In this document: positions 2,308-24,047 of the stretch, in pieces | Numbering within the stretch: the stretch's first letter is position 1 | Layout of the letters: each line of letters begins with the position of its first letter | IMG/VR virus record: IMGVR_UViG_3300048672_000495 | Location: 1 to 55,126 of that record | DNA length: 55,126 bases | Source of the DNA: a virus | Taxonomy: Duplodnaviria; Caudoviricetes | Strand: one strand, 5' to 3' | Notes under the pieces: generated by a model | Told to the model about the DNA's origin: nothing | Seen by the model: only the letters and a program-made list of their open reading frames with translations | The model's database searches: none | Position numbers and translations under genes: made by a program

Positions 2308-2408
2308 TGGTACCAGGTACTGGAATCGAACCAGTGTTCGCCGCCTTATCTAGACGGTGCTTAAGAGTTTATAAGGCTCCCTCATAGGCCAACATTAGCA
2401 AACCTGGC
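2308..2408 (-). tRNA. tRNA-Ile(UAU)-like, 101 nt, with extra anticodon-like arm (GAU)
   Basis: GCCAGGT/ACCTGGT acceptor + ACCA; loop CTTATAA; extra hairpin CCGTC-TAGATAA-GGCGG; ACTGG-TTCGATT-CCAGT T arm. Confidence 0.75.
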
Positions 2409-14790: not shown

Positions 14791-15082
14791 CTTATTCAAA
14801 ACGAAACCAGAAGAAAAAAAAGAAATTGTAACAGGTCCCCCTACAAGTATTACACCTGCACCAAAACTACCTGAGCCCCCAATGTGGACAGTCGGGCCAT
14901 CAAATGATGGTACACAAATAGTGTTGTGTATACAGCATGATTGTACAATCATTAGGATGTATATGAATGCAGAGGCTACGGAATCGTTGATTCAATCGCT
15001 TGATTCCCTTCTTCAGCCGATGTTGACCGTATTGCAAAAAAATTCGGTTTTAGAGCCATTTCCAACGATCGAAACAGCATGA
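14783..15082 (+). CDS. hypothetical protein
   Basis: 99-aa ORF overlapping neighbours. Confidence 0.6.
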   Translation: MFNLFKTKPEEKKEIVTGPPTSITPAPKLPEPPMWTVGPSNDGTQIVLCIQHDCTIIRMYMNAEATESLIQSLDSLLQPMLTVLQKNSVLEPFPTIETA

Positions 15083-15378
15083 AGTACGATAATGAAACTA
15101 CCAAGAAATTAGTTGCTGATTACGCCTCAGGCGTGTCAGTTGCGCTCCTTGCGGAGCAATTAGACGTCCCTGAGCGCTCTATAATTGCCAAACTGGCCTC
15201 ACTTGGTGTATACAAGAAGAAGGAATACCTTAATAAACAGGGTGAACCGCCCATAAAAAAGGAAGAATACGTCGAGCGTATTGCAAATTTGCTAAAAGTC
15301 AATGTAGAACTACTAGAATCTCTTGAAAAGGTCAATAAAAACGTCTTAAAGATGCTAGAAGACGCATTAACTTCCTAA
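15079..15378 (+). CDS. T5 A2/D3-like DNA-binding protein
   Basis: RSIIAKLASLGVY..LESLEK; paralog of 16999-17310 and 18110-18502. Confidence 0.7.
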   Translation: MKYDNETTKKLVADYASGVSVALLAEQLDVPERSIIAKLASLGVYKKKEYLNKQGEPPIKKEEYVERIANLLKVNVELLESLEKVNKNVLKMLEDALTS

Positions 15379-15383
15379 AACTC

Positions 15384-15420
15384 AAAAAGCCTCGTAATAT
15401 CACTATTACGAGGCTTTTTT
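15384..15420 (+). terminator. intrinsic (bidirectional) terminator
   Basis: AAAAAGCCTCGTAATA-TCAC-TATTACGAGGCTTTTT. Confidence 0.85.
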
Positions 15421-15621
15421 GCGTCGGAAGTCAACTGTGACTATTTTTTCATTCAAAACAGCCCAACCACAATAATTATGACCCAACCGCGCTAATTGCT
15501 TGCCGGAGGCAAGAGGCTGCGCCGCTTGGGGCGATTCGCTAAATTCTCACTTGACAAATCTGCTCAGCACTGGTAAAATTTGGCGCCGAAACAGACTTGT
15601 TACATTTTGTTACAATTGAGC

Positions 15622-15660
15622 AAAAACTAAACCCCCAGAATCCGAAGATTAAGGGGGTTA
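15622..15660 (-). terminator. intrinsic terminator ending the large ncRNA unit
   Basis: minus: AACCCCC..AATC TTCG GATT..GGGGGTT TAGTTTTT. Confidence 0.65.
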
Positions 15661-16508
15661 GAAGTATGACTAGTACTTTTTATATAGATATCTTGAGTCG
15701 TCGAAACTCTCAATCTCCACTGTTTTTTAAGAGCTGGGACTCTGCCAGGTTTATGCTCGGTAGCCGAGCACCAGCCGTATCGCGTCGTACTGGGTTTCTT
15801 TGTGTGGTAAGAGCTACTTACCTACACGTATGTGTTCCTAAGTTGGTACCATAAAGGGTTCGAGACCGCGTACTAGGTAACACAATATAACAACGTCTCC
15901 CGACGTTGGCTGGATCATGTTGGGTTGCCTCTGCATCCACGATCTGATCCGCAACAAGCTCGATAGCACTCCAAAGCTATCGCATTTAAGTCCAATTCGG
16001 GCAGGATTCCATCCTGGGGTGGACACTAAATAAACCGACTCTCACGGTATTCTAGATCTAAGTTTCGCTTGATGGCCCTTGCATGCTAGTCTGCGGCACT
16101 CGCTACACCAGTCTATATAAGGAGCTGCTCGACTGGTATCTGCGCTGCTCGCTAATCTTATAATTCGTCTTGGATTTGATTAAGATCCAATGTAACGTCT
16201 ACACTTATATTAACCTCCGGGCCGCATGTAGACGCCTCCCAGATTCTGCCTTTCGTTGTTGTGAGACTATTTTGCGATCTTCCCACTACTACTCGCAGCC
16301 GCTTATATGCCGGGCCAGATCAGACATCCTGGTTTAAGTCCTTATGTCAGAGACTACCAACTTAAGTTTTGGCAAACTAACTATACGGATGACACCAGAA
16401 TAGTCATAGGAGAGTAATCTCTTTAGGTAACAGGCACGCAAATGCTTTCGACCTTATTAGACACCTACGGTCAGGAGACTCAGAGAAATCAGACTCATCT
16501 GACTAATC
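15660..16508 (-). ncRNA. large (~850 nt) structured non-coding RNA candidate
   Basis: No credible ORF; many hairpins (TTGGAT..ATCCAA, ACCAGTC..GACTGGT, CAGGAT-GGA-ATCCTG, CGATAGC..GCTATCG, TGCTCGG-CTA-CCGAGCA, GGTAAG..CTTACC) and AGTA/GAA motifs. Confidence 0.55.
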
Positions 16509-16559
16509 TACGACTGACCGTTTCGACCGAATTGCACGGTCTCATCAGGATGCTTTAAT
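16502..16559 (-). ncRNA. type I hammerhead ribozyme
   Basis: minus: ATC-CTGATGA-GACCG tgcaatt CGGTC-GAAA-CGG tcag TCG-TA^GAT; full core, stems II and III, GUA cleavage triplet (cut 16509/16508); stem I short or bulged. Confidence 0.75.
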
Positions 16560-16634
16560 TGGTACCCCTTATGGGTTTCGATCCCATCTGCACAACGTGA
16601 AAGGCTGTTGACCTCGCCAGAAGTCCAAAGGGGC
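16560..16634 (-). tRNA. trnE: tRNA-Glu(UUC)
   Basis: GCCCCTT/AAGGGGT acceptor, loop CTTTCAC, T loop ATCGAAA, ACCA end. Confidence 0.88.
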
Positions 16635-16734
16635 ATAAATAGGGGATGGCTGTCGACCTGGTATAATTTTCACGACACTTAGTTCATCTATTCCCAACCA
16701 TGTATGGGAACCAAAGAGCACCATCTGGAAAATT

Positions 16735-16806
16735 GTAGTATAAGCTCGCCGTCTACTCACGCTGCCTCTGCTTGACGTCCCTTTACAAGGTAACGTGTTA
16801 TACTAC
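16735..16806 (-). ncRNA. stem-closed small RNA candidate
   Basis: GTAGTATAA / TTATACTAC 9-bp terminal stem, first element after promoter. Confidence 0.4.
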
Positions 16807-16844
16807 GCGCCGGTGATTCCGGTCTTTCTCTCACTTCAACATCT

Positions 16845-16967
16845 ATTATACATGAAAAGGGGATGCGAATCAAGACAATATTTATTGATCTGAATCGCTG
16901 CTTTTCTTCTTGTCGCTAATTCCCCAGTCCATATACATATTATACATGAAAGGAGCCCCAGGATCAA
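16845..16967 (-). promoter_or_regulatory. two tandem sigma70-type promoters
   Basis: TTGATT-17-TATAAT (~16845-16873) and TTGATC-17-TATAAT (~16939-16967), sharing TTTCATGTATAAT. Confidence 0.8.
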
Positions 16968-16998
16968 GTGAGAATTTTTGATCCTAGGCTCCGCACCG

Positions 16999-17310
16999 TC
17001 AGGCTTCGAGAGCCTTCAGGACGAACATCAGAGCCGGACCCGTGGCCTTTTCCAGCGACTCCACCTGTTCTTCGGACGCGCCGACCGCCTTGGCGATCTT
17101 GGCAACCATTTCCGCCTTCAGCATCTCACGCTTGCCGGCTTCCTTGGCCTTGGGGACGTACACACCTTCCTTCGACAGCTTGGCGATCACCGAGCGTGCC
17201 GACTTGCCCAGCTTGACAGCCAGAGCTTCCACAGCCACACCAGCTTGATAGCCGGCAACCAGTTCCGCAACCTGTTCGGCGGAATAATTCGCAACCTTTT
17301 CAGCAGACAT
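16999..17310 (-). CDS. T5 A2-like DNA-binding protein
   Basis: NYS..LGKSARSVIAKLSKEGVY..ESLEKA; GGAGAG RBS; promoter TTGAGG-17-TATAAT upstream. Confidence 0.75.
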   Translation of the reverse strand: MSAEKVANYSAEQVAELVAGYQAGVAVEALAVKLGKSARSVIAKLSKEGVYVPKAKEAGKREMLKAEMVAKIAKAVGASEEQVESLEKATGPALMFVLKALEA

Positions 17311-17559: not shown

Positions 17560-18110
17560 TATTTCCGACCTTACGACTAATTGGGGTCAGGCTCAGAAAA
17601 ATTCACTTGACAGCGCGTGGTCGCGCGAGTATAATGGGCGCGGCCAAATTATACCGCTTTACCACTGGCGCAGAACGCACTAAGTGTATTTTTTGTAGCA
17701 CTACCACTGGCGCAGCGCACTGCTTTTTTTCGACGTGAGCGCTCACTAACGTCCAAATGTGTGTAAGTGCTTACATTGAATGCGAGTGAGAATGATTCGC
17801 GTTCAGGGCCCGAATTGTAGCCTATGTAACAGATTGTAAAAGTCATTGACACACCCCAATTTTATGTGATAAAATTGGCGCGCCCGAAGTGAGTGCTCAC
17901 TTCGCTACCGGGCAAAACAAAAACCGCGGCCGCGGTTTTTGAAAGTGAGTACCTGCTATGCGCAGGGATGCCAACCTAGCGGCTACCGATGGCGTCGGGT
18001 CACGGCCGCGTTTCTCGCTTTTTTGTCAATAGGGATTTACCCTATACCCGCCGCGATGACTTTATGCACGCATTGCGGGATTTAATCAATAGGGGTTTCC
18101 CCCTATTGAT
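17560..18110. repeat. palindrome/direct-repeat-rich non-coding block (injection-stop-signal-like)
   Basis: TACCACTGGCGCAG x2, CGAAGTGAGTGCTCACTTCG, AAAACCGCGGCCGCGGTTTT, ATCAATAGGGG..CCCCTATTGAT. Confidence 0.55.
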
Positions 18111-18502
18111 TATTCGCCTACCGGGGCGACTTCGCCAGCCCTTTCCTCGCCATTTTCCAGCGGTTTGCTGTTGGCGAGCGCCGTGAAAATTTTCACCAGA
18201 GCGGTTTTGTTCGCCTTTGTGAGCGATTCCGTTTCCGATTCGGTCAACTTCAAAACCGCGCCGATCGCATCGGCGTGCGCGTCTTTCTTGACCGGCTTTT
18301 CGCCGTTCTTGCTGACATACGCCTTCGCCTTGTATACGCCTTCTTTCGTGAGCTTGGCGATCACGCTGCGAGCAGTCTTGCCGATGGCAACAGCCATCTT
18401 TTCGACGTTTTCCTTACTCGCGTCGGCAGCGTAGCCCGCGAGAATGGTTGCGGTTTGCGCATCGGTGTAATTCGGTGCCTTGACAGTCTTTTCGGTAGCC
18501 AT
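18110..18502 (-). CDS. T5 A2-like DNA-binding protein
   Basis: NYT..IGKTARSVIAKLTKEGVY..ESLTKA. Confidence 0.75.
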   Translation of the reverse strand: MATEKTVKAPNYTDAQTATILAGYAADASKENVEKMAVAIGKTARSVIAKLTKEGVYKAKAYVSKNGEKPVKKDAHADAIGAVLKLTESETESLTKANKTALVKIFTALANSKPLENGEERAGEVAPVGE

Positions 18503-18625: not shown

Positions 18626-18842
18626 ATTATGAGGCATGGCAGGCCAGCGCGCAAGTGTTATTACAAACTGTTACAATTGCATTTTCCTACCATATGCCCG
18701 CGTGCATGTCAAGCAGTATTACAAACTGTTACAATTGCCCGGCCTGGGGCCTGTTACATCTTGTTACAAAAAACCGCTTGACGCGGGCCAAAATTATATG
18801 ATATAATTTTGGCGCCCGAAGTTAGTGAGTACTCACTAACTT
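18626..18842. promoter_or_regulatory. repeated pre-early regulatory cassette (representative copy)
   Basis: minus promoter(s) + TTACAAACTGTTACA boxes + plus TTGACG-18-TATAAT within palindrome + GGCGC + AAGTTAGTGAGTACTCACTAACTT; related cassettes at ~17825, 20503, 21739, 22627, 23377. Confidence 0.75.
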
Positions 18843-18880
18843 AGTATATAAAATAATATGGGGCATATTGCCCCATATTA

Positions 18881-19234
18881 TTAAACTATAACCCAGTATC
18901 TGTCGAGTAGATACCGCGCCCACGGTTTGAATTGTGTTTTCTCACCGTGGCCGAATCTATACCCATTTTCGTGCTGCCAGATATGGATATATTCGTGAAA
19001 CAAACACCCGAGCATTTTCTCCAGAGTATCCGAATACTGTTCAGATACTAGAATAACGTGAGTTTTTTTGTTCTTGCCGAGATACCCCGGATAATGGTAT
19101 AATGCTGCACATTCGTCACCATCCTGGTATATATGTTTCACGCGGAAAACATATACCGGCAATTTTACGTCGAATATCGAATCCATTAGCGGACCATATG
19201 GATTCGATATTCTTTGCATTTTGTTATTTGGCAC
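18881..19234 (-). CDS. SprT-like HEXXH metalloprotease
   Basis: LFHEYIHIWQ..GHG..F. Confidence 0.65.
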   Translation of the reverse strand: MPNNKMQRISNPYGPLMDSIFDVKLPVYVFRVKHIYQDGDECAALYHYPGYLGKNKKTHVILVSEQYSDTLEKMLGCLFHEYIHIWQHENGYRFGHGEKTQFKPWARYLLDRYWVIV

Positions 19235-19922
19235 AGAAATGATCCTTTACTTGAAAAGATTTCCAGTTATATGCAATTGTTTTTTCTTGCCAATTGCGTT
19301 TCTTGAGAATATGCACCAGAGTCGGCAATTCATATCCGATAATATCCTCAATTGAAGTATGCGGTTCGTCAGTCATACTACCAGTGAGAAACCCAGTAAC
19401 TGCTTCGGCAGTTGTCGAATATGTCATATTACCGAATTTCGTGCGAGCATTGAACAAATGATTGTCAATGGCAAACTGTCGATATGCCTTAGTTTGACAG
19501 ATATTGCCAACGGCCGCGCCCCATAAACAAAACCGATTTGAAAACATATTCAAATCAATTTGAGTATTTGCACATTTACTCGCATCAAATGCGAGATTAT
19601 ATGCCGTAAGTGTCGGGTTATACTTACCCGCTGCTTTTTCCAGCCAACGATTTACTGCGTTTGCGCTTGCGAGCATACGCGAACCCGCTGTTAGCATCGC
19701 ATTATAAGAATCCATGCGTGCAGACACGTTCGCAGCAGACCAGATACCCGGCGCATTCTTATCGTAAAAAAGCGAGTCAACACCAAAAACAGATTGAACC
19801 AAAACCGCACATTGTGCGGCAATGTTTCCATGCCTATCGCAGACAACCGCGCCAAAATCCGCGACCTTATCCGTGATTGACGTTTCAGTGTCAACGATTA
19901 GGAAAAACTGTTTTTTTGCCAT
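19224..19922 (-). CDS. DEDDh 3'-5' exonuclease
   Basis: IVDTET (ExoI), AYNLAFD (ExoII), HTSIED (ExoIII). Confidence 0.8.
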   Translation of the reverse strand: MAKKQFFLIVDTETSITDKVADFGAVVCDRHGNIAAQCAVLVQSVFGVDSLFYDKNAPGIWSAANVSARMDSYNAMLTAGSRMLASANAVNRWLEKAAGKYNPTLTAYNLAFDASKCANTQIDLNMFSNRFCLWGAAVGNICQTKAYRQFAIDNHLFNARTKFGNMTYSTTAEAVTGFLTGSMTDEPHTSIEDIIGYELPTLVHILKKRNWQEKTIAYNWKSFQVKDHFCAK

Positions 19923-20978: not shown

Positions 20979-21266
20979 TCATATTTGCCTCGCAGTGAAT
21001 TTGATTTGAATTTCAGTATCATTACGTTCCCAGATTTTATATCTGAGCATAATAACCAGAAACGCAAGATTTGCCAAATAATTTACCGACAGCGGCAAAT
21101 TACCCATTGGCAAAACGTAAATCAGTGTAAAAACTTCGCCACCAAGCCAGCATAGCAGATATGCCCAATTCAGCCCGCGTGCGTGACCATCACGCGCACA
21201 TTGAATAGCCTGAGGAAAACCGCAAATGCTGAAAAGCATTGAACCAATCCAACCGATAGTTTCCAT
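20979..21266 (-). CDS. PQ-loop/SemiSWEET-like membrane protein
   Basis: 3 TM helices, GFPQAIQ motif, conserved N in TM3. Confidence 0.7.
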   Translation of the reverse strand: METIGWIGSMLFSICGFPQAIQCARDGHARGLNWAYLLCWLGGEVFTLIYVLPMGNLPLSVNYLANLAFLVIMLRYKIWERNDTEIQIKFTARQI

Positions 21267-21698
21267 TTATGCCTCCAATGCGCGCCGAAAAATAATTTCT
21301 TGGTTTGCGAATGCTTGCAATTCCCATGGTTGATTCATATATGGGGTTTTGCGTGGATATTTTACACCATTCCAGATACGCGAGCCATTCTTTGTGTCTG
21401 ACAATTTGCCAGTCGCAAATTGTTTGACATGCGTCAATTCGTGCGCTAGTGACAGCCCGAATTTTTCGAGTGTCATGCCTTTCTTCAGCGAGACAACGAA
21501 CGAACCCGCGAATAGTTCCTGCGCTAATCCCTCGTTTTCCTGTTTCGATACCGTGACAAGCACGAATCCTGCGCGCTTTGACAAATTCAATTGCGCGAGC
21601 ATTGATGGCATGAGCGCATCAAGCCATGTCGCAATGCGCCTGCTTTTCGTGTCGATCAGATATTCCATGCCTAGAGCATACCACGCCACGGTGAACAA
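21267..21698 (-). CDS. HEXXH zinc metallopeptidase
   Basis: LAHELTHVKQF..PYMNQPWELQAF; true start may be ATG 21668. Confidence 0.75.
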   Translation of the reverse strand: MFTVAWYALGMEYLIDTKSRRIATWLDALMPSMLAQLNLSKRAGFVLVTVSKQENEGLAQELFAGSFVVSLKKGMTLEKFGLSLAHELTHVKQFATGKLSDTKNGSRIWNGVKYPRKTPYMNQPWELQAFANQEIIFRRALEA

Positions 21699-21941
21699 TT
21701 TCCTAGGTGTTTACCCTAGTGTGGCAAATTCAGCACGCTTACAAACTGTTACAATAAATCGCTTGACGCACCCCATTTTACTATGGTAAAATGGCGCAAA
21801 TGTTACAAACTTGTAACAGTTTGTAACATCGCTTGACTTATTGCCAACGATTAGGGTCACCGCATATCCAAATGCACCCGACTAGAGTGCACCCCATGAG
21901 AATCAATCCACCAAGACCCACGACAGTGATCAAAAAATCCA

Positions 21942-22322
21942 TTATCTACCTTTCTTTGCGCGCGCAATGCGCATTGCCGACGTTGTGAGAGAATGACAGC
22001 GCGAGGGTTCCAGCCCATAGGCCAGCATCACGCTTTTCCAATGGTAGCCGTGACCGTTATCACGGTACACATCCCACGCTACCATGTGAGCGATTTCATG
22101 TGGAATAATGTCTTGTTTGTATGCTTCGACATTTTCCGCAAACATGACAGGGGCAAGCTCAACAATGCGAGCGTCAAGATTGCAGCGGCCTGCAGTGGTC
22201 TTGAGTCTGCGGTTTAGCTGAATCACGGGCATCGTGTTTTTCAGTGTGAACAGTTGCCCAAAGCGCTGCCAAATTTTGGAGCGCTCGCATTCTGCGATCA
22301 GTTGAAGTGTTTTTTCGTCCAT
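21942..22322 (-). CDS. SprT-family metalloprotease
   Basis: RLKTTAGRC..IPHEIAH..HGYHWKSVM..G..PSRCH. Confidence 0.85.
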   Translation of the reverse strand: MDEKTLQLIAECERSKIWQRFGQLFTLKNTMPVIQLNRRLKTTAGRCNLDARIVELAPVMFAENVEAYKQDIIPHEIAHMVAWDVYRDNGHGYHWKSVMLAYGLEPSRCHSLTTSAMRIARAKKGR

Positions 22323-22331
22323 GACAGGATT

Positions 22332-22550
22332 CTAGCACATCGGCTGACAGAAACGATCCCACATTTCTTGCCCATCGACTTCGTACAAACCCGCATACGG
22401 GCCGAGTTCATCTGAGAGAAATTCGCAGTATTCCTCATCTGTCAAACCAGCGCACAGCAGGTTTTGCAGTTCAGTGACTTCGCCGATTGGCAGGCGTTCG
22501 CAATCCTCGCCAATCATGTCGCAGCGTTGGGGGCCGAGGTCAATTGTCAT
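22332..22550 (-). CDS. hypothetical acidic protein
   Basis: ATG 22550 with GGAGA RBS. Confidence 0.55.
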   Translation of the reverse strand: MTIDLGPQRCDMIGEDCERLPIGEVTELQNLLCAGLTDEEYCEFLSDELGPYAGLYEVDGQEMWDRFCQPMC

Positions 22551-22794
22551 AGTCGTTTCTCCAGTTGACGCATTCATTCTATAGCATCCAGCCAACAATA
22601 ACATAGGTGTTTACCCTAGTGTTGTTTTACAAATTGTTACACGTGCAGCTATTGACACGTCCCAATTATACGTGGTATAATTGGCGCCAATTGTAACAGT
22701 TTGTAACAGTGCTTGACAAAACAAAACCCGCCTAAGCGGGTTTTGAACGTAAGCGGGTCGGAAATTCGCGCCCGCTCAGGCCGTAATTCTCAGC

Positions 22795-22971
22795 CTATAC
22801 GTTTTTATTTGTTAATTCGCACCAATGCCCACGCCACGAGCATTGCAACGGCAGAGGCGCACGCGCAGCGCGGTTCGCATCCTGAGCGCGCTTCTGTGCG
22901 CGAGTGTCGCGAGCAGGCAGTGGGGCGAGGTTCAGGGTAGCACGGATTTCGTTGATACGGGCAAGGTTCAT
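22795..22971 (-). CDS. small basic hypothetical protein (58 aa)
   Basis: hand-translated MNLARINEIRATLNL...; GGAGA RBS, -10 TATAAT at 22998-23003. Confidence 0.5.
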   Translation of the reverse strand: MNLARINEIRATLNLAPLPARDTRAQKRAQDANRAARAPLPLQCSWRGHWCELTNKNV

Positions 22972-23032
22972 TTCGTTTCTCCGGTGTGTGAGTCTGAATT
23001 ATAGCGCACCGATCACGATGCGCTATAGGTGT

Positions 23033-23338
23033 TTACCCTTGATTGTACAAATTCGCGAAGCTTTGCGCGAAGTAGTCGAAATTGTCAGACGTGCAAGGCA
23101 CGGGCACATCACAGCGGCGAATCGCTTGCGATGCGCCGATGAGTCTGTCGAATTTCGGTTCACTTGGCGATTGCCATGCGATGCCCATGCATGCCCATTG
23201 CGAACCCGCAAAGTTTTCGATCAGGGCAATGGTCAGGCCAATGTCACGAAAGAAAAACAGTTCGCCGCCTGCGCTCATAAAGTCATTGCGCATCTCGGTA
23301 TTGTATTTGCGTTGGCCCGCAGTCATCTTCGTTGTCAT
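23033..23338 (-). CDS. hypothetical protein
   Basis: ATG 23338 after ACGAAAGGGCAAA leader, also found before 18502. Confidence 0.65.
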   Translation of the reverse strand: MTTKMTAGQRKYNTEMRNDFMSAGGELFFFRDIGLTIALIENFAGSQWACMGIAWQSPSEPKFDRLIGASQAIRRCDVPVPCTSDNFDYFAQSFANLYNQG

Positions 23339-23514
23339 GGTTTGCCCTTTCGTGGCAGTGGTTGATTGACAATGTAAGTATAGGGCATGGAATAGCACAT
23401 GCAAGCACCTTTACAAACAGTTACAAAGAGTTACAATAAATATGTTGACGCGGGCCTATGCGCTGTGGTAAAATAGGCGCAAATGTAAGTTAGTGCTAAC
23501 TAACTTACATCGTA

Positions 23515-23784
23515 TTAGGGACCGGGGTAGTCTGTGCCGCTAGTGTCTGCAATGACTACCAGATGCGGGACATACTTATGATTACGCCTTGCAAACTCCC
23601 TATTCATAGCGGCGACTGCTTCTTCTGCTGTGTCATAAGCGGCAAGTCTAGAGCCTATGCCACCATGCATTGACGCACGGCTCATGTCAACGAAACGCAC
23701 ATCACGCCAGCCAAAAAATCCATGCTGTTGCATGATGTAGCGCGATCCCTCGCGCGTGATGATGCGAAAATGTTTCAGTTTCAT
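23515..23784 (-). CDS. hypothetical protein
   Basis: ATG 23784, GAGGG RBS, ATGA coupling. Confidence 0.55.
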   Translation of the reverse strand: MKLKHFRIITREGSRYIMQQHGFFGWRDVRFVDMSRASMHGGIGSRLAAYDTAEEAVAAMNREFARRNHKYVPHLVVIADTSGTDYPGP

Positions 23785-24047
23785 TGCTTGTGCCCTCGTT
23801 TGTAAGAAACATGCCCCCACACATCGCGCACGGGCACCGTGAATTGCAGTTTGCAATCCAGTGTCGTGATGGTGATGCTGCTTGTGTCGCGTGACAGTTC
23901 AGTAAGGTCGCGCACGCTGCAATACGCACCACGCTTGCCAGCCCAGATTGAAAAATCTTCACCGTTCAGCCATGCTGTACGCATTGCGTCAACGTCGGCA
24001 TAGTGTTTGCCGGGGGCAGGGATTAGAACAAGTGGTGTTGCAAACAT
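23781..24047 (-). CDS. hypothetical protein (first pre-early gene)
   Basis: GAGGA RBS, promoter TTGTAC-16-TAGAAT upstream. Confidence 0.6.
   Translation of the reverse strand: MFATPLVLIPAPGKHYADVDAMRTAWLNGEDFSIWAGKRGAYCSVRDLTELSRDTSSITITTLDCKLQFTVPVRDVWGHVSYKRGHKQ

What the first reader, a model, noticed from the sequence alone, without database searches (positions are those of the whole stretch)
15622..16508. ~850-nt ORF-free, highly structured RNA downstream of a tRNA and ribozyme
Seen: near-continuous hairpins, AGTA/GAA (E-loop-like) motifs near 15785-15800 and 15858-15875, higher GC than its flanks, and a terminator at the end. Knowledge: GOLLD and ROOL are large tRNA-associated phage ncRNAs of this size class, described mostly from Firmicutes and environmental DNA. 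Inference: a GOLLD/ROOL-like or new giant ncRNA in a T5-like phage, with its 5' end made by self-cleavage.
Basis: partly seen in the sequence, partly recalled or inferred. Interest (0 to 1): 0.85.

Follow-up and report, generated by a model that had tools for sequence, protein, structure and literature searches.

The report
Hammerhead-released orphan noncoding phage RNA
The stretch is the roughly 0.8-kb gene-free tail of a phage transcription unit that also holds a tRNA and a genuine self-cutting hammerhead ribozyme, but the tail itself has no detectable relatives, so it is not a conserved giant RNA of the GOLLD/ROOL kind.

Summary
The unit lies on the minus strand. It has tandem sigma-70-like promoters (16967-16845), a leader, tRNA-Glu(UUC) at 16634-16560, a type-I hammerhead at 16553-16461 with predicted cleavage at 16466|16465, an ORF-free trailer (16465-15665) and a terminator (15664-15622).

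The hammerhead is real. In 9 syntenic sequences, 14 of 17 stem pairs show compensatory changes.

The trailer matches no Rfam family at E<=10, including GOLLD, ROOL, introns and RNase P. It has no detectable similarity to 113 fetched loci totalling 797 kb. That set includes the closest relative, L035, whose flank is 76% identical and whose alignment to the window stops at the hammerhead cleavage site.

Its folding z-score (-2.9) lies at the edge of coding controls (+0.4 to -2.85). The AGUA motifs occur at chance frequency.

Across this clade of freshwater T5-like phages the same slot always holds an ORF-poor trailer of about 190-920 nt. The trailers differ between lineages.

The GOLLD/ROOL reading is not supported. 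Generation of the 5' end by self-cleavage is supported by inference. The best reading is a lineage-specific, exchangeable noncoding RNA released with a 5'-OH; its function is unknown.

The parts
16939..16967 (-). Upstream promoter-like site: TTGATC, 17 nt, TATAAT
   Evidence: scores it 10 of 12. It is the second copy of the repeat family D2.
16845..16873 (-). Proximal promoter-like site: TTGATT, 17 nt, TATAAT
   Evidence: scores it 10 of 12. It aligns with TTGACT..TATAAT in the closest relative L035. The flank 17380-16841 is 76% identical to L035.
16635..16838 (-). Leader RNA of about 200 nt, poorly conserved
   Evidence: Its bounds are inferred from the promoter and tRNA positions. It aligns only weakly to L035. 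Positions 16692-16634 resemble L022 12743-12801.
16560..16634 (-). tRNA-Glu (anticodon UUC) with encoded CCA and an atypical T-loop (AUCGAAA)
   Evidence: ARAGORN calls it. The Rfam tRNA model does not find it at E<=10. It is about 80% identical to the tRNA-Glu of L042 and L054, which have a canonical T-loop and compensatory acceptor-stem changes. tRNA-Glu(UUC) sits at this position in 12 of 80 metagenome loci.
16461..16553 (-). Type-I hammerhead ribozyme. Stem I is 16553-16549 paired with 16465-16461. The core CUGAUGA is at 16548-16542. Stem II with its loop is at 16541-16525, and GAAA at 16524-16521. Stem III is 16521-16514 paired with 16474-16467, with a 39-nt insert. Predicted cleavage follows GUA, between 16466 and 16465.
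   Evidence: Rfam Hammerhead_1 scores 22.8 bits, below its cut-off of 34. The RNAalifold consensus of 9 sequences recovers all three stems, with compensatory changes in 14 of 17 pairs. In one search, 98% of cells are paired against 29-41% when partners are slid, and 0 of 500 shuffles reach the observed value. My own model R1 scores the window at 79.7 bits, but the window was a training sequence.
15665..16465 (-). The trailer: about 800 nt, ORF-free, no detectable homologue. This is the finding proper.
   Evidence: The folding z-score is -2.9.
15622..15664 (-). Intrinsic-terminator-like hairpin (AACCCCC..GGGGGUU) followed by UUUAGUUUUU
   Evidence: Relatives have an equivalent strong terminator in the same place.
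15551..15579 (+). Conserved convergent promoter: TTGACA, 17 nt, TG-n-TAAAAT. The TGTTACA operator-like repeats follow at 15591-15619. It probably drives a short RNA antisense to the trailer's terminator.
   Evidence: scores it 11 of 12 with a TG before the second hexamer. The repeats are families D3-D5. The promoter is conserved in L016, L017 and L034. The short antisense RNA is an inference.

Best explanation
The stretch is the 3' trailer of a noncoding minus-strand transcription unit: promoters, leader, tRNA-Glu, hammerhead, trailer, terminator. The hammerhead cuts between 16466 and 16465. That leaves the tRNA and ribozyme on the 5' fragment, which ends in a 2',3'-cyclic phosphate. It releases an RNA of about 0.8 kb with a 5'-OH that ends at the terminator.

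This slot, between the hammerhead and the terminator, is conserved across a clade of freshwater T5-like phages. Its content is not. Each lineage carries a different ORF-poor trailer of about 190-920 nt. The window's trailer is therefore a lineage-specific, exchanged noncoding RNA segment, not a member of a conserved giant-RNA family.

My best guess at the mode of action is an accessory phage RNA that works through local hairpins or short segments (a decoy, sponge or antisense RNA) and not through one conserved global fold.

Shown: the anatomy, the conservation and covariation of the hammerhead, and the lack of homology of the trailer. Inferred: transcription, in vivo cleavage, the 5'-OH end, and any function at all.
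For: ANATOMY
-.

HAMMERHEAD
- 14 of 17 pairs carry compensatory changes in 9 sequences. 98% of cells are paired, against 29-41% in slid controls.
- Model R1 finds the hammerhead at E<0.01 in 18 of 93 sources. 9 of those were training sequences and 9 are new.

SYNTENY
- The convergent 99-aa gene has 80 metagenome relatives. 40 of them carry at least 1 kb downstream, and 19 of those 40 carry a hammerhead by model or regex.

THE TRAILER IS NOT CONSERVED
- nhmmer of the whole unit against the 80 loci gives 10 hits in 8 loci. All lie within window 16891-16467. The L035 alignment stops at the cleavage site.
- The trailer alone against 113 loci (796,667 bases) gives no nhmmer hit at E<=50, only two blastn matches of 16-20 nt, and no tblastx hit.
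- This looks like replacement and not drift. The L035 flank is 76% identical over 547 nt. In the sister cluster L059/L061/L064, at 69-82% identity, the trailers align end to end.

THE TRAILER IS THE PRODUCT
- In L061 a promoter (TTGCAC, 17 nt, TATAAT) sits about 10 nt before hammerhead stem I, with no tRNA. There the transcript is just hammerhead plus trailer.

ALL TRAILERS ARE ORF-POOR
- 21 segments were examined.

SOME LOCAL STRUCTURE IS KEPT IN A SISTER TRAILER FAMILY
- 8 of 77 trailer pairs show changes on both sides in 3 sequences. Long trailers fold better than shuffles: L047 z -6.8 and L035 z -4.6.

POPULATION DATA
- Contigs of other freshwater-sediment runs carry pieces of this trailer at 95-99% likeness.
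- One X2 contig has 83 other letters in place of 16109-16189.
- The listed differences in the X2 and X3 contigs cluster at 16413-16461, just 3' of the cleavage site.
Against: - No RNA data show that the unit is transcribed or cut.
- The window's own trailer has no homologue, so no covariation test is possible.
- Its folding z-score (-2.9) overlaps the coding controls, two of which reach -2.85 and -2.63.
- Its raised GC is shared with the whole 15.4-19.2 kb island.
- The compensatory changes in the sister trailer come from only 3 sequences, on a structure predicted from those same sequences. That biases the count.
- The conserved blocks in that alignment could reflect recent recombination and not selection.
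- 21 of the 40 loci with enough sequence show no hammerhead. Four of these (L068, L071, L074, L109) have tRNA-Glu without one. The ribozyme is therefore not obligatory for the slot.
- The X2 joint was seen at a likeness threshold of 80. The tool warns that such joints can come from other organisms.
- A functionless spacer fits most of these facts as well.
Confidence: 0.5

Rival explanations
1. Functionless spacer or decay product. The trailer is unconstrained DNA between a useful tRNA/ribozyme and the terminator. It could be the remains of decayed tRNA genes or of inserted foreign DNA, transcribed only passively.
For: - There is no sequence conservation beyond close relatives.
- Lengths range from about 190 to 920 nt.
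- The window's folding z-score is within the coding controls.
- The window's own tRNA-Glu looks degenerate. The Rfam tRNA model misses it at E<=10, while relatives score 54-59 bits.
- L065 carries a weak tRNA-like element (31.6 bits, poor anticodon stem) inside its trailer.
- By eye I read a tRNA-like T-arm and acceptor right after the hammerhead in L034. ARAGORN did not call it.
Against: - Relaxed ARAGORN and the Rfam tRNA model at E<=10 find no tRNA-like remnant in the window's trailer.
- A weak tRNA was seen in the trailer of only 1 of the 8 relatives scanned with Rfam.
- The slot stays ORF-poor and long in many non-homologous versions inside otherwise compact phage genomes.
- The hammerhead is under strong purifying selection even where there is no upstream tRNA and the transcript is only ribozyme plus trailer.
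- GC is higher than in phage coding DNA, which is opposite to the usual drift of unconstrained phage DNA (the direction of drift is my general knowledge).
Confidence: 0.27
2. A new giant structured ncRNA, GOLLD/ROOL-like in role. It would have one elaborate global fold, possibly multimeric. It would look like an orphan only because the databases lack its relatives.
For: - The size class (about 0.8 kb), the phage origin and the neighbouring tRNA match what is written about GOLLD and ROOL (passages read in bioRxiv 10.1101/2024.12.08.627333).
- Strong promoters and a terminator bound it.
- The z-score is -2.9 to -3.15.
- Near-identical copies occur in several freshwater-sediment runs.
Against: - No Rfam match at E<=10.
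- The closest syntenic relative has a different trailer in the same slot.
- No 11-mer inside the trailers is shared by 5 or more lineages. All the shared 11-mers lie in the ribozyme or in the region from the terminator through the promoter to the gene end.
- The thermodynamic signal is not above the coding controls.
- A near-identical strain appears to replace an 81-nt block outright. That is hard to reconcile with one tightly constrained fold.
Confidence: 0.12
3. A DNA-level element, such as a replication origin, a regulatory or recombination hot spot, or a decayed protein gene, and not an RNA product.
For: - The stretch lies at a convergent junction.
- It is flanked by operator-like TGTTACA repeats, repeated promoter modules and three paralogous small DNA-binding proteins.
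- It shows segmental replacement between strains.
Against: - There are no iterons or tandem repeats inside it.
- It has no AT-rich tract; GC is 46%.
- The cumulative GC-skew minimum lies at about 22-24 kb, not here.
- There is no translated similarity to any locus and no Pfam or PHROG hit.
- It is framed by a conserved ribozyme and a terminator on one strand, which marks it as transcribed sequence.
Confidence: 0.08

Closest known systems
Hammerhead ribozymes in phage and prophage intergenic regions (Perreault et al. 2011, PMC3088659; passages read)
   Same: The catalytic core and three-stem fold are the same. The location is a phage intergenic region. The proposed role, cutting long phage transcripts into separate units, is the same.
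   Different: Here stem III carries a 39-54 nt insert, so Rfam's models score below their cut-offs. The downstream product is a long ORF-free RNA that differs between lineages, not an mRNA. In other phage contigs with the same loop II (L029/L031 and L032), an ORF starts right after the ribozyme.
GOLLD (RF01998) and ROOL (RF03087)
   Same: Both are large phage-encoded noncoding RNAs often found next to tRNA genes. GOLLD often exceeds 800 nt and can hold a tRNA in its linker (passages read in bioRxiv 10.1101/2024.12.08.627333).
   Different: No covariance-model match at E<=10. No conserved 3' domain, conserved loops or covariation could be shown, because no homologue exists in what I searched. 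The same slot in relatives holds unrelated sequence.
Theta (HDV-like) ribozymes next to phage tRNAs (Kienbeck et al. 2024, PMC10879173; passages read)
   Same: A small self-cleaving ribozyme sits directly downstream of a phage tRNA. In the window, only 6 nt (16559-16554) separate the encoded CCA from stem I.
   Different: Theta ribozymes cut at their own 5' edge, at the tRNA 3' end. This type-I hammerhead cuts at its 3' side, 94 nt past the CCA. It therefore frees the downstream RNA and does not make the tRNA 3' end. Related loci also have the hammerhead without any tRNA.

Membership tests
Hammerhead ribozyme (type I) | Conserved core CUGANGA ... GAAA with an NUH cleavage triplet | tested here: met
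   The window has CUGAUGA at 16548-16542, GAAA at 16524-16521 and GUA at 16468-16466. The core is kept in all 9 aligned sequences.
Hammerhead ribozyme (type I) | Three helices around the core, supported by covariation | tested here: met
   14 of 17 pairs show changes on both sides. 98.0% of cells are paired against 28.9-40.8% when partners are slid. 0 of 500 shuffles reach the observed value.
Hammerhead ribozyme (type I) | Reaches the Rfam gathering score | tested here: not met
   Hammerhead_1 scores 22.8 bits against a cut-off of 34 (E=0.014 in 1.7 kb). Rfam's alignment forces a 4-bp stem III with a 1-nt loop. The real stem III is 8 bp closed by a 39-nt insert.
Hammerhead ribozyme (type I) | Self-cleavage activity | not testable with these tools
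   This needs in vitro transcription of the minus strand, about 16600-16400.
tRNA (tRNA-Glu) | Cloverleaf with anticodon loop | tested here: met
   ARAGORN calls tRNA-Glu(UUC) at default and at relaxed thresholds. Homologues with compensatory acceptor-stem changes exist in L042 and L054.
tRNA (tRNA-Glu) | Match to the Rfam tRNA model and a canonical T-loop | tested here: not met
   RF00005 does not list it at E<=10. The T-loop reads AUCGAAA. Relatives score 53.6-59.1 bits. It may be impaired.
GOLLD (RF01998) | Match to the family covariance model, including its conserved 3' domain | tested here: not met
   The family is not among the matches at E<=10 in the permissive scan of 15300-17000, nor at gathering score over the whole window.
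GOLLD (RF01998) | Phage-encoded, near tRNA genes, often longer than 800 nt | tested here: met
   The trailer is about 800 nt and lies downstream of tRNA-Glu in a T5-like phage. This is context only and does not define the family.
ROOL (RF03087) | Match to the family covariance model | tested here: not met
   No match at E<=10.
Group I/II introns, RNase P, tmRNA, OLE, raiA, HEARO | Match to the Rfam models | tested here: not met
   Apart from Hammerhead_1, the matches at E<=10 are weak leader, sRNA, cis-regulatory (trpB) and miRNA-model hits. All but one lie on the 15343-15474 terminator region. The exception, SSRC34_2 (18.5 bits, E=6, 15607-15664), lies on the trailer's own terminator.
Any conserved structured ncRNA family | Homologues with conserved blocks and covarying pairs | tested here: not met
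   No homologue of 16465-15665 turned up in 113 loci, in INPHARED, or in two 20-mer scans. The two 20-mer hits were chance matches. The absence is limited to what these searches can reach.
Intrinsic terminator | GC-rich hairpin followed by a U tract | tested here: met
   The hairpin at 15664-15630 is followed by UUUAGUUUUU.

The most novel reading that the evidence does not exclude
The hammerhead-to-terminator slot is a cassette site for a new class of phage accessory RNAs. These would be ORF-free 5'-OH RNAs whose scaffold and blocks are swapped between lineages and even between near-identical strains, with the variable blocks carrying specificity as decoy, antisense or guide segments. The window would hold one of the largest examples.
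Probability: 0.22. Interest if true: 0.8.

Novelty: new variant of a known kind. Interest (0 to 1): 0.48.

Why it matters
If the trailers are functional, this clade shows a use of a hammerhead that I did not find described. Full-text searches for hammerhead with T5-like (0 papers) and for Demerecviridae with ribozyme (3 papers, none relevant by title or abstract) found nothing.

In that use the ribozyme acts as a fixed 5' processing module in front of an exchangeable noncoding RNA. That would give a handle on fast-evolving phage RNAs, which covariation-based discovery misses by design.

If the trailers are not functional, the case is still a useful caution. Size, a tRNA neighbour, hairpins and raised GC are not enough to call a GOLLD/ROOL-like RNA.

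Tried and rejected
REJECTED READINGS
- Plus-strand reading. The tRNA, ribozyme and terminator all read on the minus strand. The plus-strand promoter at 15551 more likely makes a short RNA.
- Rfam's own hammerhead alignment (cleavage after GUC at 16512). It gives a poor stem I and an impossible stem III, and is replaced by the model.
- Decayed gene. No tblastx, Pfam or PHROG signal.
- tRNA remnants in the window's trailer. None by relaxed ARAGORN or by RF00005 at E<=10.
- Origin-like repeats. None.
- Antisense target inside the window. Only chance matches of 10-15 nt.
- The motif TAGTCTGTTTT, seen in several relatives, is not enriched in the window: 22 matches against 30 expected.
- The L018 hammerhead-pattern hit lies in a coding region and is a chance match.
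- L033 matched the promoter pattern but has protein genes there.

SEARCHES THAT LED NOWHERE
- The 264-aa neighbouring protein gave no viral relative.
- The terminase gave only two short contigs and one distant locus.
- The phosphoesterase gave only distant phages.
- The 20-mer scans hit L115 (a Bacillota MAG) and L116. Neither shares anything beyond the 20-21-mer.

RNA EVIDENCE
- No RNA holder is listed for this stretch.
- Run X8 is marked 'RNA?' only as a guess. It holds one contig over 16138-16316 with 7 differences. I draw nothing from it.
- Parts of the stretch without contig cover mean nothing.

NOT AVAILABLE
- Supplementary files of papers were not opened. The supplementary alignments of Perreault 2011 could hold related phage hammerheads that I did not see.

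CORRECTION
- The count is 12 of 80.
Full report
WHERE AND WHAT

The window is a 55-kb virus record, about 52% complete. It belongs to a T5-like phage. The terminase region is about 70% identical in DNA to T5-like phages of enterobacteria and Vibrio. Small DNA-binding proteins near the finding hit PHROG families annotated 'DNA binding protein' and 'transcriptional regulator, D5-like'.

The finding reads on the minus strand. In 5'-to-3' order it contains:
- two tandem sigma-70-like promoters, 16967-16939 and 16873-16845, each 10 of 12;
- a leader of about 200 nt;
- tRNA-Glu(UUC) at 16634-16560 with an encoded CCA;
- a hammerhead core, 6 nt further on (one match in the window, none in 100 shuffles);
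- about 800 nt without a credible ORF;
- a hairpin with a U tract at 15664-15622.

THE RIBOZYME

Rfam places Hammerhead_1 at 16554-16506 with 22.8 bits, below its cut-off of 34. That alignment has a mismatched stem I and a 4-bp stem III closed by one base.

Relatives show a better model:
- stem I is GCAUC paired with GGUGU;
- stem II is GACCG paired with CGGUC, with loop UGCAAUU;
- stem III is ACGGUCAG paired with CUGACCGU, closed by a 39-nt insert;
- cleavage follows GUA, between 16466 and 16465.

A strict parser recovered this architecture in 13 of 22 syntenic sequences, with different stem sequences in each lineage. RNAalifold on 9 of them returned exactly the three hammerhead helices, and 14 of 17 pairs have compensatory changes. 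On that structure 98.0% of cells pair, against 28.9-40.8% when partners are slid by 1-3 columns, and 0 of 500 shuffles reach the observed covariation.

A covariance model built from these 9 sequences (R1) found the ribozyme at E<0.01 in 18 of 93 sources. Nine of those were its own training sequences and nine are new. Five further loci have variants that only the regular expression found. Two have a long stem II (L057, L060) and three did not parse under the strict rules (L097, L042, L054).

The ribozyme is real. It is a hammerhead with an enlarged stem III. Because it is type I, it cuts on its 3' side. The tRNA keeps the ribozyme as a 3' extension, and the downstream RNA is released with a 5'-OH. 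The end chemistry is established knowledge of hammerhead cleavage and was not tested here.

THE tRNA

ARAGORN accepts it even at relaxed settings. The Rfam tRNA model does not list it at E<=10, and its T-loop reads AUCGAAA. L042 and L054 carry an 80%-identical tRNA-Glu with a canonical T-loop and compensatory acceptor-stem changes. Relatives score 53.6-59.1 bits. The gene is homologous to a genuine tRNA-Glu but may be impaired in this phage.

THE TRAILER

This is the finding proper.

Rfam: a permissive scan of 15300-17000 gave 12 matches at E<=10. None is GOLLD, ROOL, a group I or II intron, RNase P or any other large RNA. The only one lying on the trailer unit is a weak sRNA-model hit on its terminator.

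Public phages: blastn at low stringency against 50,697 phage records found nothing.

Syntenic relatives were collected in three ways:
- through the 232-aa protein at 19224-19922 (12 viral loci);
- through two DNA patterns;
- through an alignment of the convergent 99-aa gene scanned over metagenome contigs (80 loci at 53-79% amino-acid identity).

nhmmer with the whole unit gave 10 hits in 8 of the 80 loci. All fall within window 16891-16467, which covers the promoter, leader, tRNA and ribozyme. In the closest relative, L035, the alignment ends at the cleavage site.

The trailer alone, searched against 113 loci (796,667 bases), gave no nhmmer hit at E<=50, two blastn matches of 16-20 nt and no tblastx hit. 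Two 20-mers from the trailer hit only unrelated DNA.

REPLACEMENT, NOT DRIFT

The L035 flank is 76% identical over 547 nt, up to the promoter. In the sister cluster L059/L061/L064, at 69-82% identity, the trailers align over their whole length. An orthologous trailer in L035 should therefore have been detectable. The L035 trailer (about 550 nt) shares no colinear 8-mers with the window's.

Across the clade the slot holds ORF-poor sequence of about 190 to 920 nt. These sequences align only within close clusters. No 11-mer is shared by five or more lineages except in the ribozyme and in the region from the terminator through the promoter to the gene end.

IS IT 'HIGHLY STRUCTURED'?

For the trailer alone it is -2.9 (30 shuffles). 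Seven coding pieces of the same length from this window give +0.4 to -2.85 (25 shuffles). The value is at the edge of the controls and not outside them.

AGUA occurs at chance frequency. The raised GC (45.8%) is shared with the right flank (48.1%), which includes protein genes.

Some other trailers do stand out: L047 at z -6.8 and L035 at z -4.6.

In the three-sequence alignment of the sister family, 8 of 77 trailer pairs show changes on both sides. Conserved blocks alternate with replaced blocks. With three sequences, and a structure predicted from those same sequences, this is only a hint.

WHY I STILL LEAN TO AN RNA PRODUCT

In L061 a good promoter (TTGCAC, 17 nt, TATAAT) lies about 10 nt before hammerhead stem I, and there is no tRNA. 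The transcript there is ribozyme plus trailer and nothing else. A ribozyme kept under strong selection in that setting implies that cutting matters for what follows it.

The slot stays long and ORF-poor in many unrelated versions.

Contigs from other freshwater-sediment runs carry pieces of this very trailer at 95-99% likeness. One contig has 83 other letters in place of 16109-16189. The listed differences of a roughly 85%-alike variant cluster at 16413-16461, just 3' of the cut. I note the tool's warning about joints seen below 95% likeness.

Against this reading:
- 21 of the 40 loci with at least 1 kb downstream show no hammerhead;
- four loci have tRNA-Glu without a hammerhead;
- a weak tRNA-like element sits in the trailer of L065;
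- there are no RNA data.

COMPARISON WITH KNOWN SYSTEMS

Hammerheads in phage intergenic regions, proposed to cut long transcripts into units, are known (PMC3088659, passages read). The same loop-II type precedes ORFs in other phage contigs.

Theta ribozymes also sit behind phage tRNAs but cut at the tRNA 3' end (PMC10879173, passages read). This hammerhead cuts 94 nt further on.

GOLLD and ROOL share only context and size (bioRxiv 10.1101/2024.12.08.627333, passages read). Their model matches and conserved domains were tested here and not met.

Full-text searches for hammerhead with T5-like (0 papers) and for Demerecviridae with ribozyme (3 papers, none relevant by title or abstract) found no description of this locus.

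VERDICT

The GOLLD/ROOL interpretation is not supported. The self-cleaved 5' end is supported by inference. The stretch is best read as a lineage-specific, exchangeable noncoding trailer released by a conserved hammerhead. Whether it has a function, and what kind, is open. A functionless spacer remains a serious rival.

Noticed in passing
window 15079-15378 (+), 16999-17310 (-), 18110-18502 (-): Three paralogous small proteins of 99-130 aa hit phrog_1725 'DNA binding protein'. Two of them also hit D5-like phrog_323. The two on the minus strand sit in DNA of about 48% GC. Relatives carry 2-4 copies each.
   Followed up: partly
window 15591-15619 and 18652-18769: Operator-like repeats of the form TGTTACAnnnTGTTACAA lie next to promoters. 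The same motif recurs many times in L015, L016, L022 and L024. They are probably binding sites of the paralogous DNA-binding proteins.
   Followed up: no
window 17846-17960 and 18778-18880 (+), also 15551-15690 (+): A repeated plus-strand module: a near-consensus promoter (TTGACA or TTGACG, then TG-n-TAAAAT or TATAAT), the sequence TTGGCGC(G)CCCGAAG, a hairpin, and a terminator-like hairpin. Each looks like a small-RNA gene of 70-100 nt (family D5).
   Followed up: no
window 2311-2408 (-): The Rfam tRNA model matches at 37.1 bits over 98 nt, but ARAGORN does not call it. It could be a tRNA with an insert or a long variable arm. Also, tRNA-Pro at 985-1071 is 87 nt by ARAGORN, while Rfam matches only 995-1064 at 29 bits.
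   Followed up: no
window 16527-16537 and 15990-16000: Hammerhead loop II with the 3' strand of stem II is 10 of 11 complementary to a trailer segment about 530 nt downstream (I7). This could be chance, or a pairing that competes with the active ribozyme fold.
   Followed up: no
window 21000-24000: A second block of raised GC (45-51%) holds small minus-strand ORFs, next to the strand switch and the cumulative GC-skew minimum near 22-24 kb.
   Followed up: no
L034 (same contig as L099), L057, L059-L062, L066, L077, L097: The sequence CTGACCCTAAAC(TGTAGC), and its complement, occurs in the enlarged hammerhead stem II and again near terminators and promoters of the same loci. It is a clade-specific repeat of unknown role.
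   Followed up: no
L016 14199-14227, L094, L097: A 28-29-nt stretch is 100% identical inside otherwise unalignable trailers of three lineages.
   Followed up: no
L061 4258-4314 (-), L016 12805-12950, L034 about 9033-8900 (-): A small conserved ORF lies upstream of the ncRNA unit in several relatives. Two of the three copies share an FFYGDYS-like motif. I did not look for it in the window.
   Followed up: no
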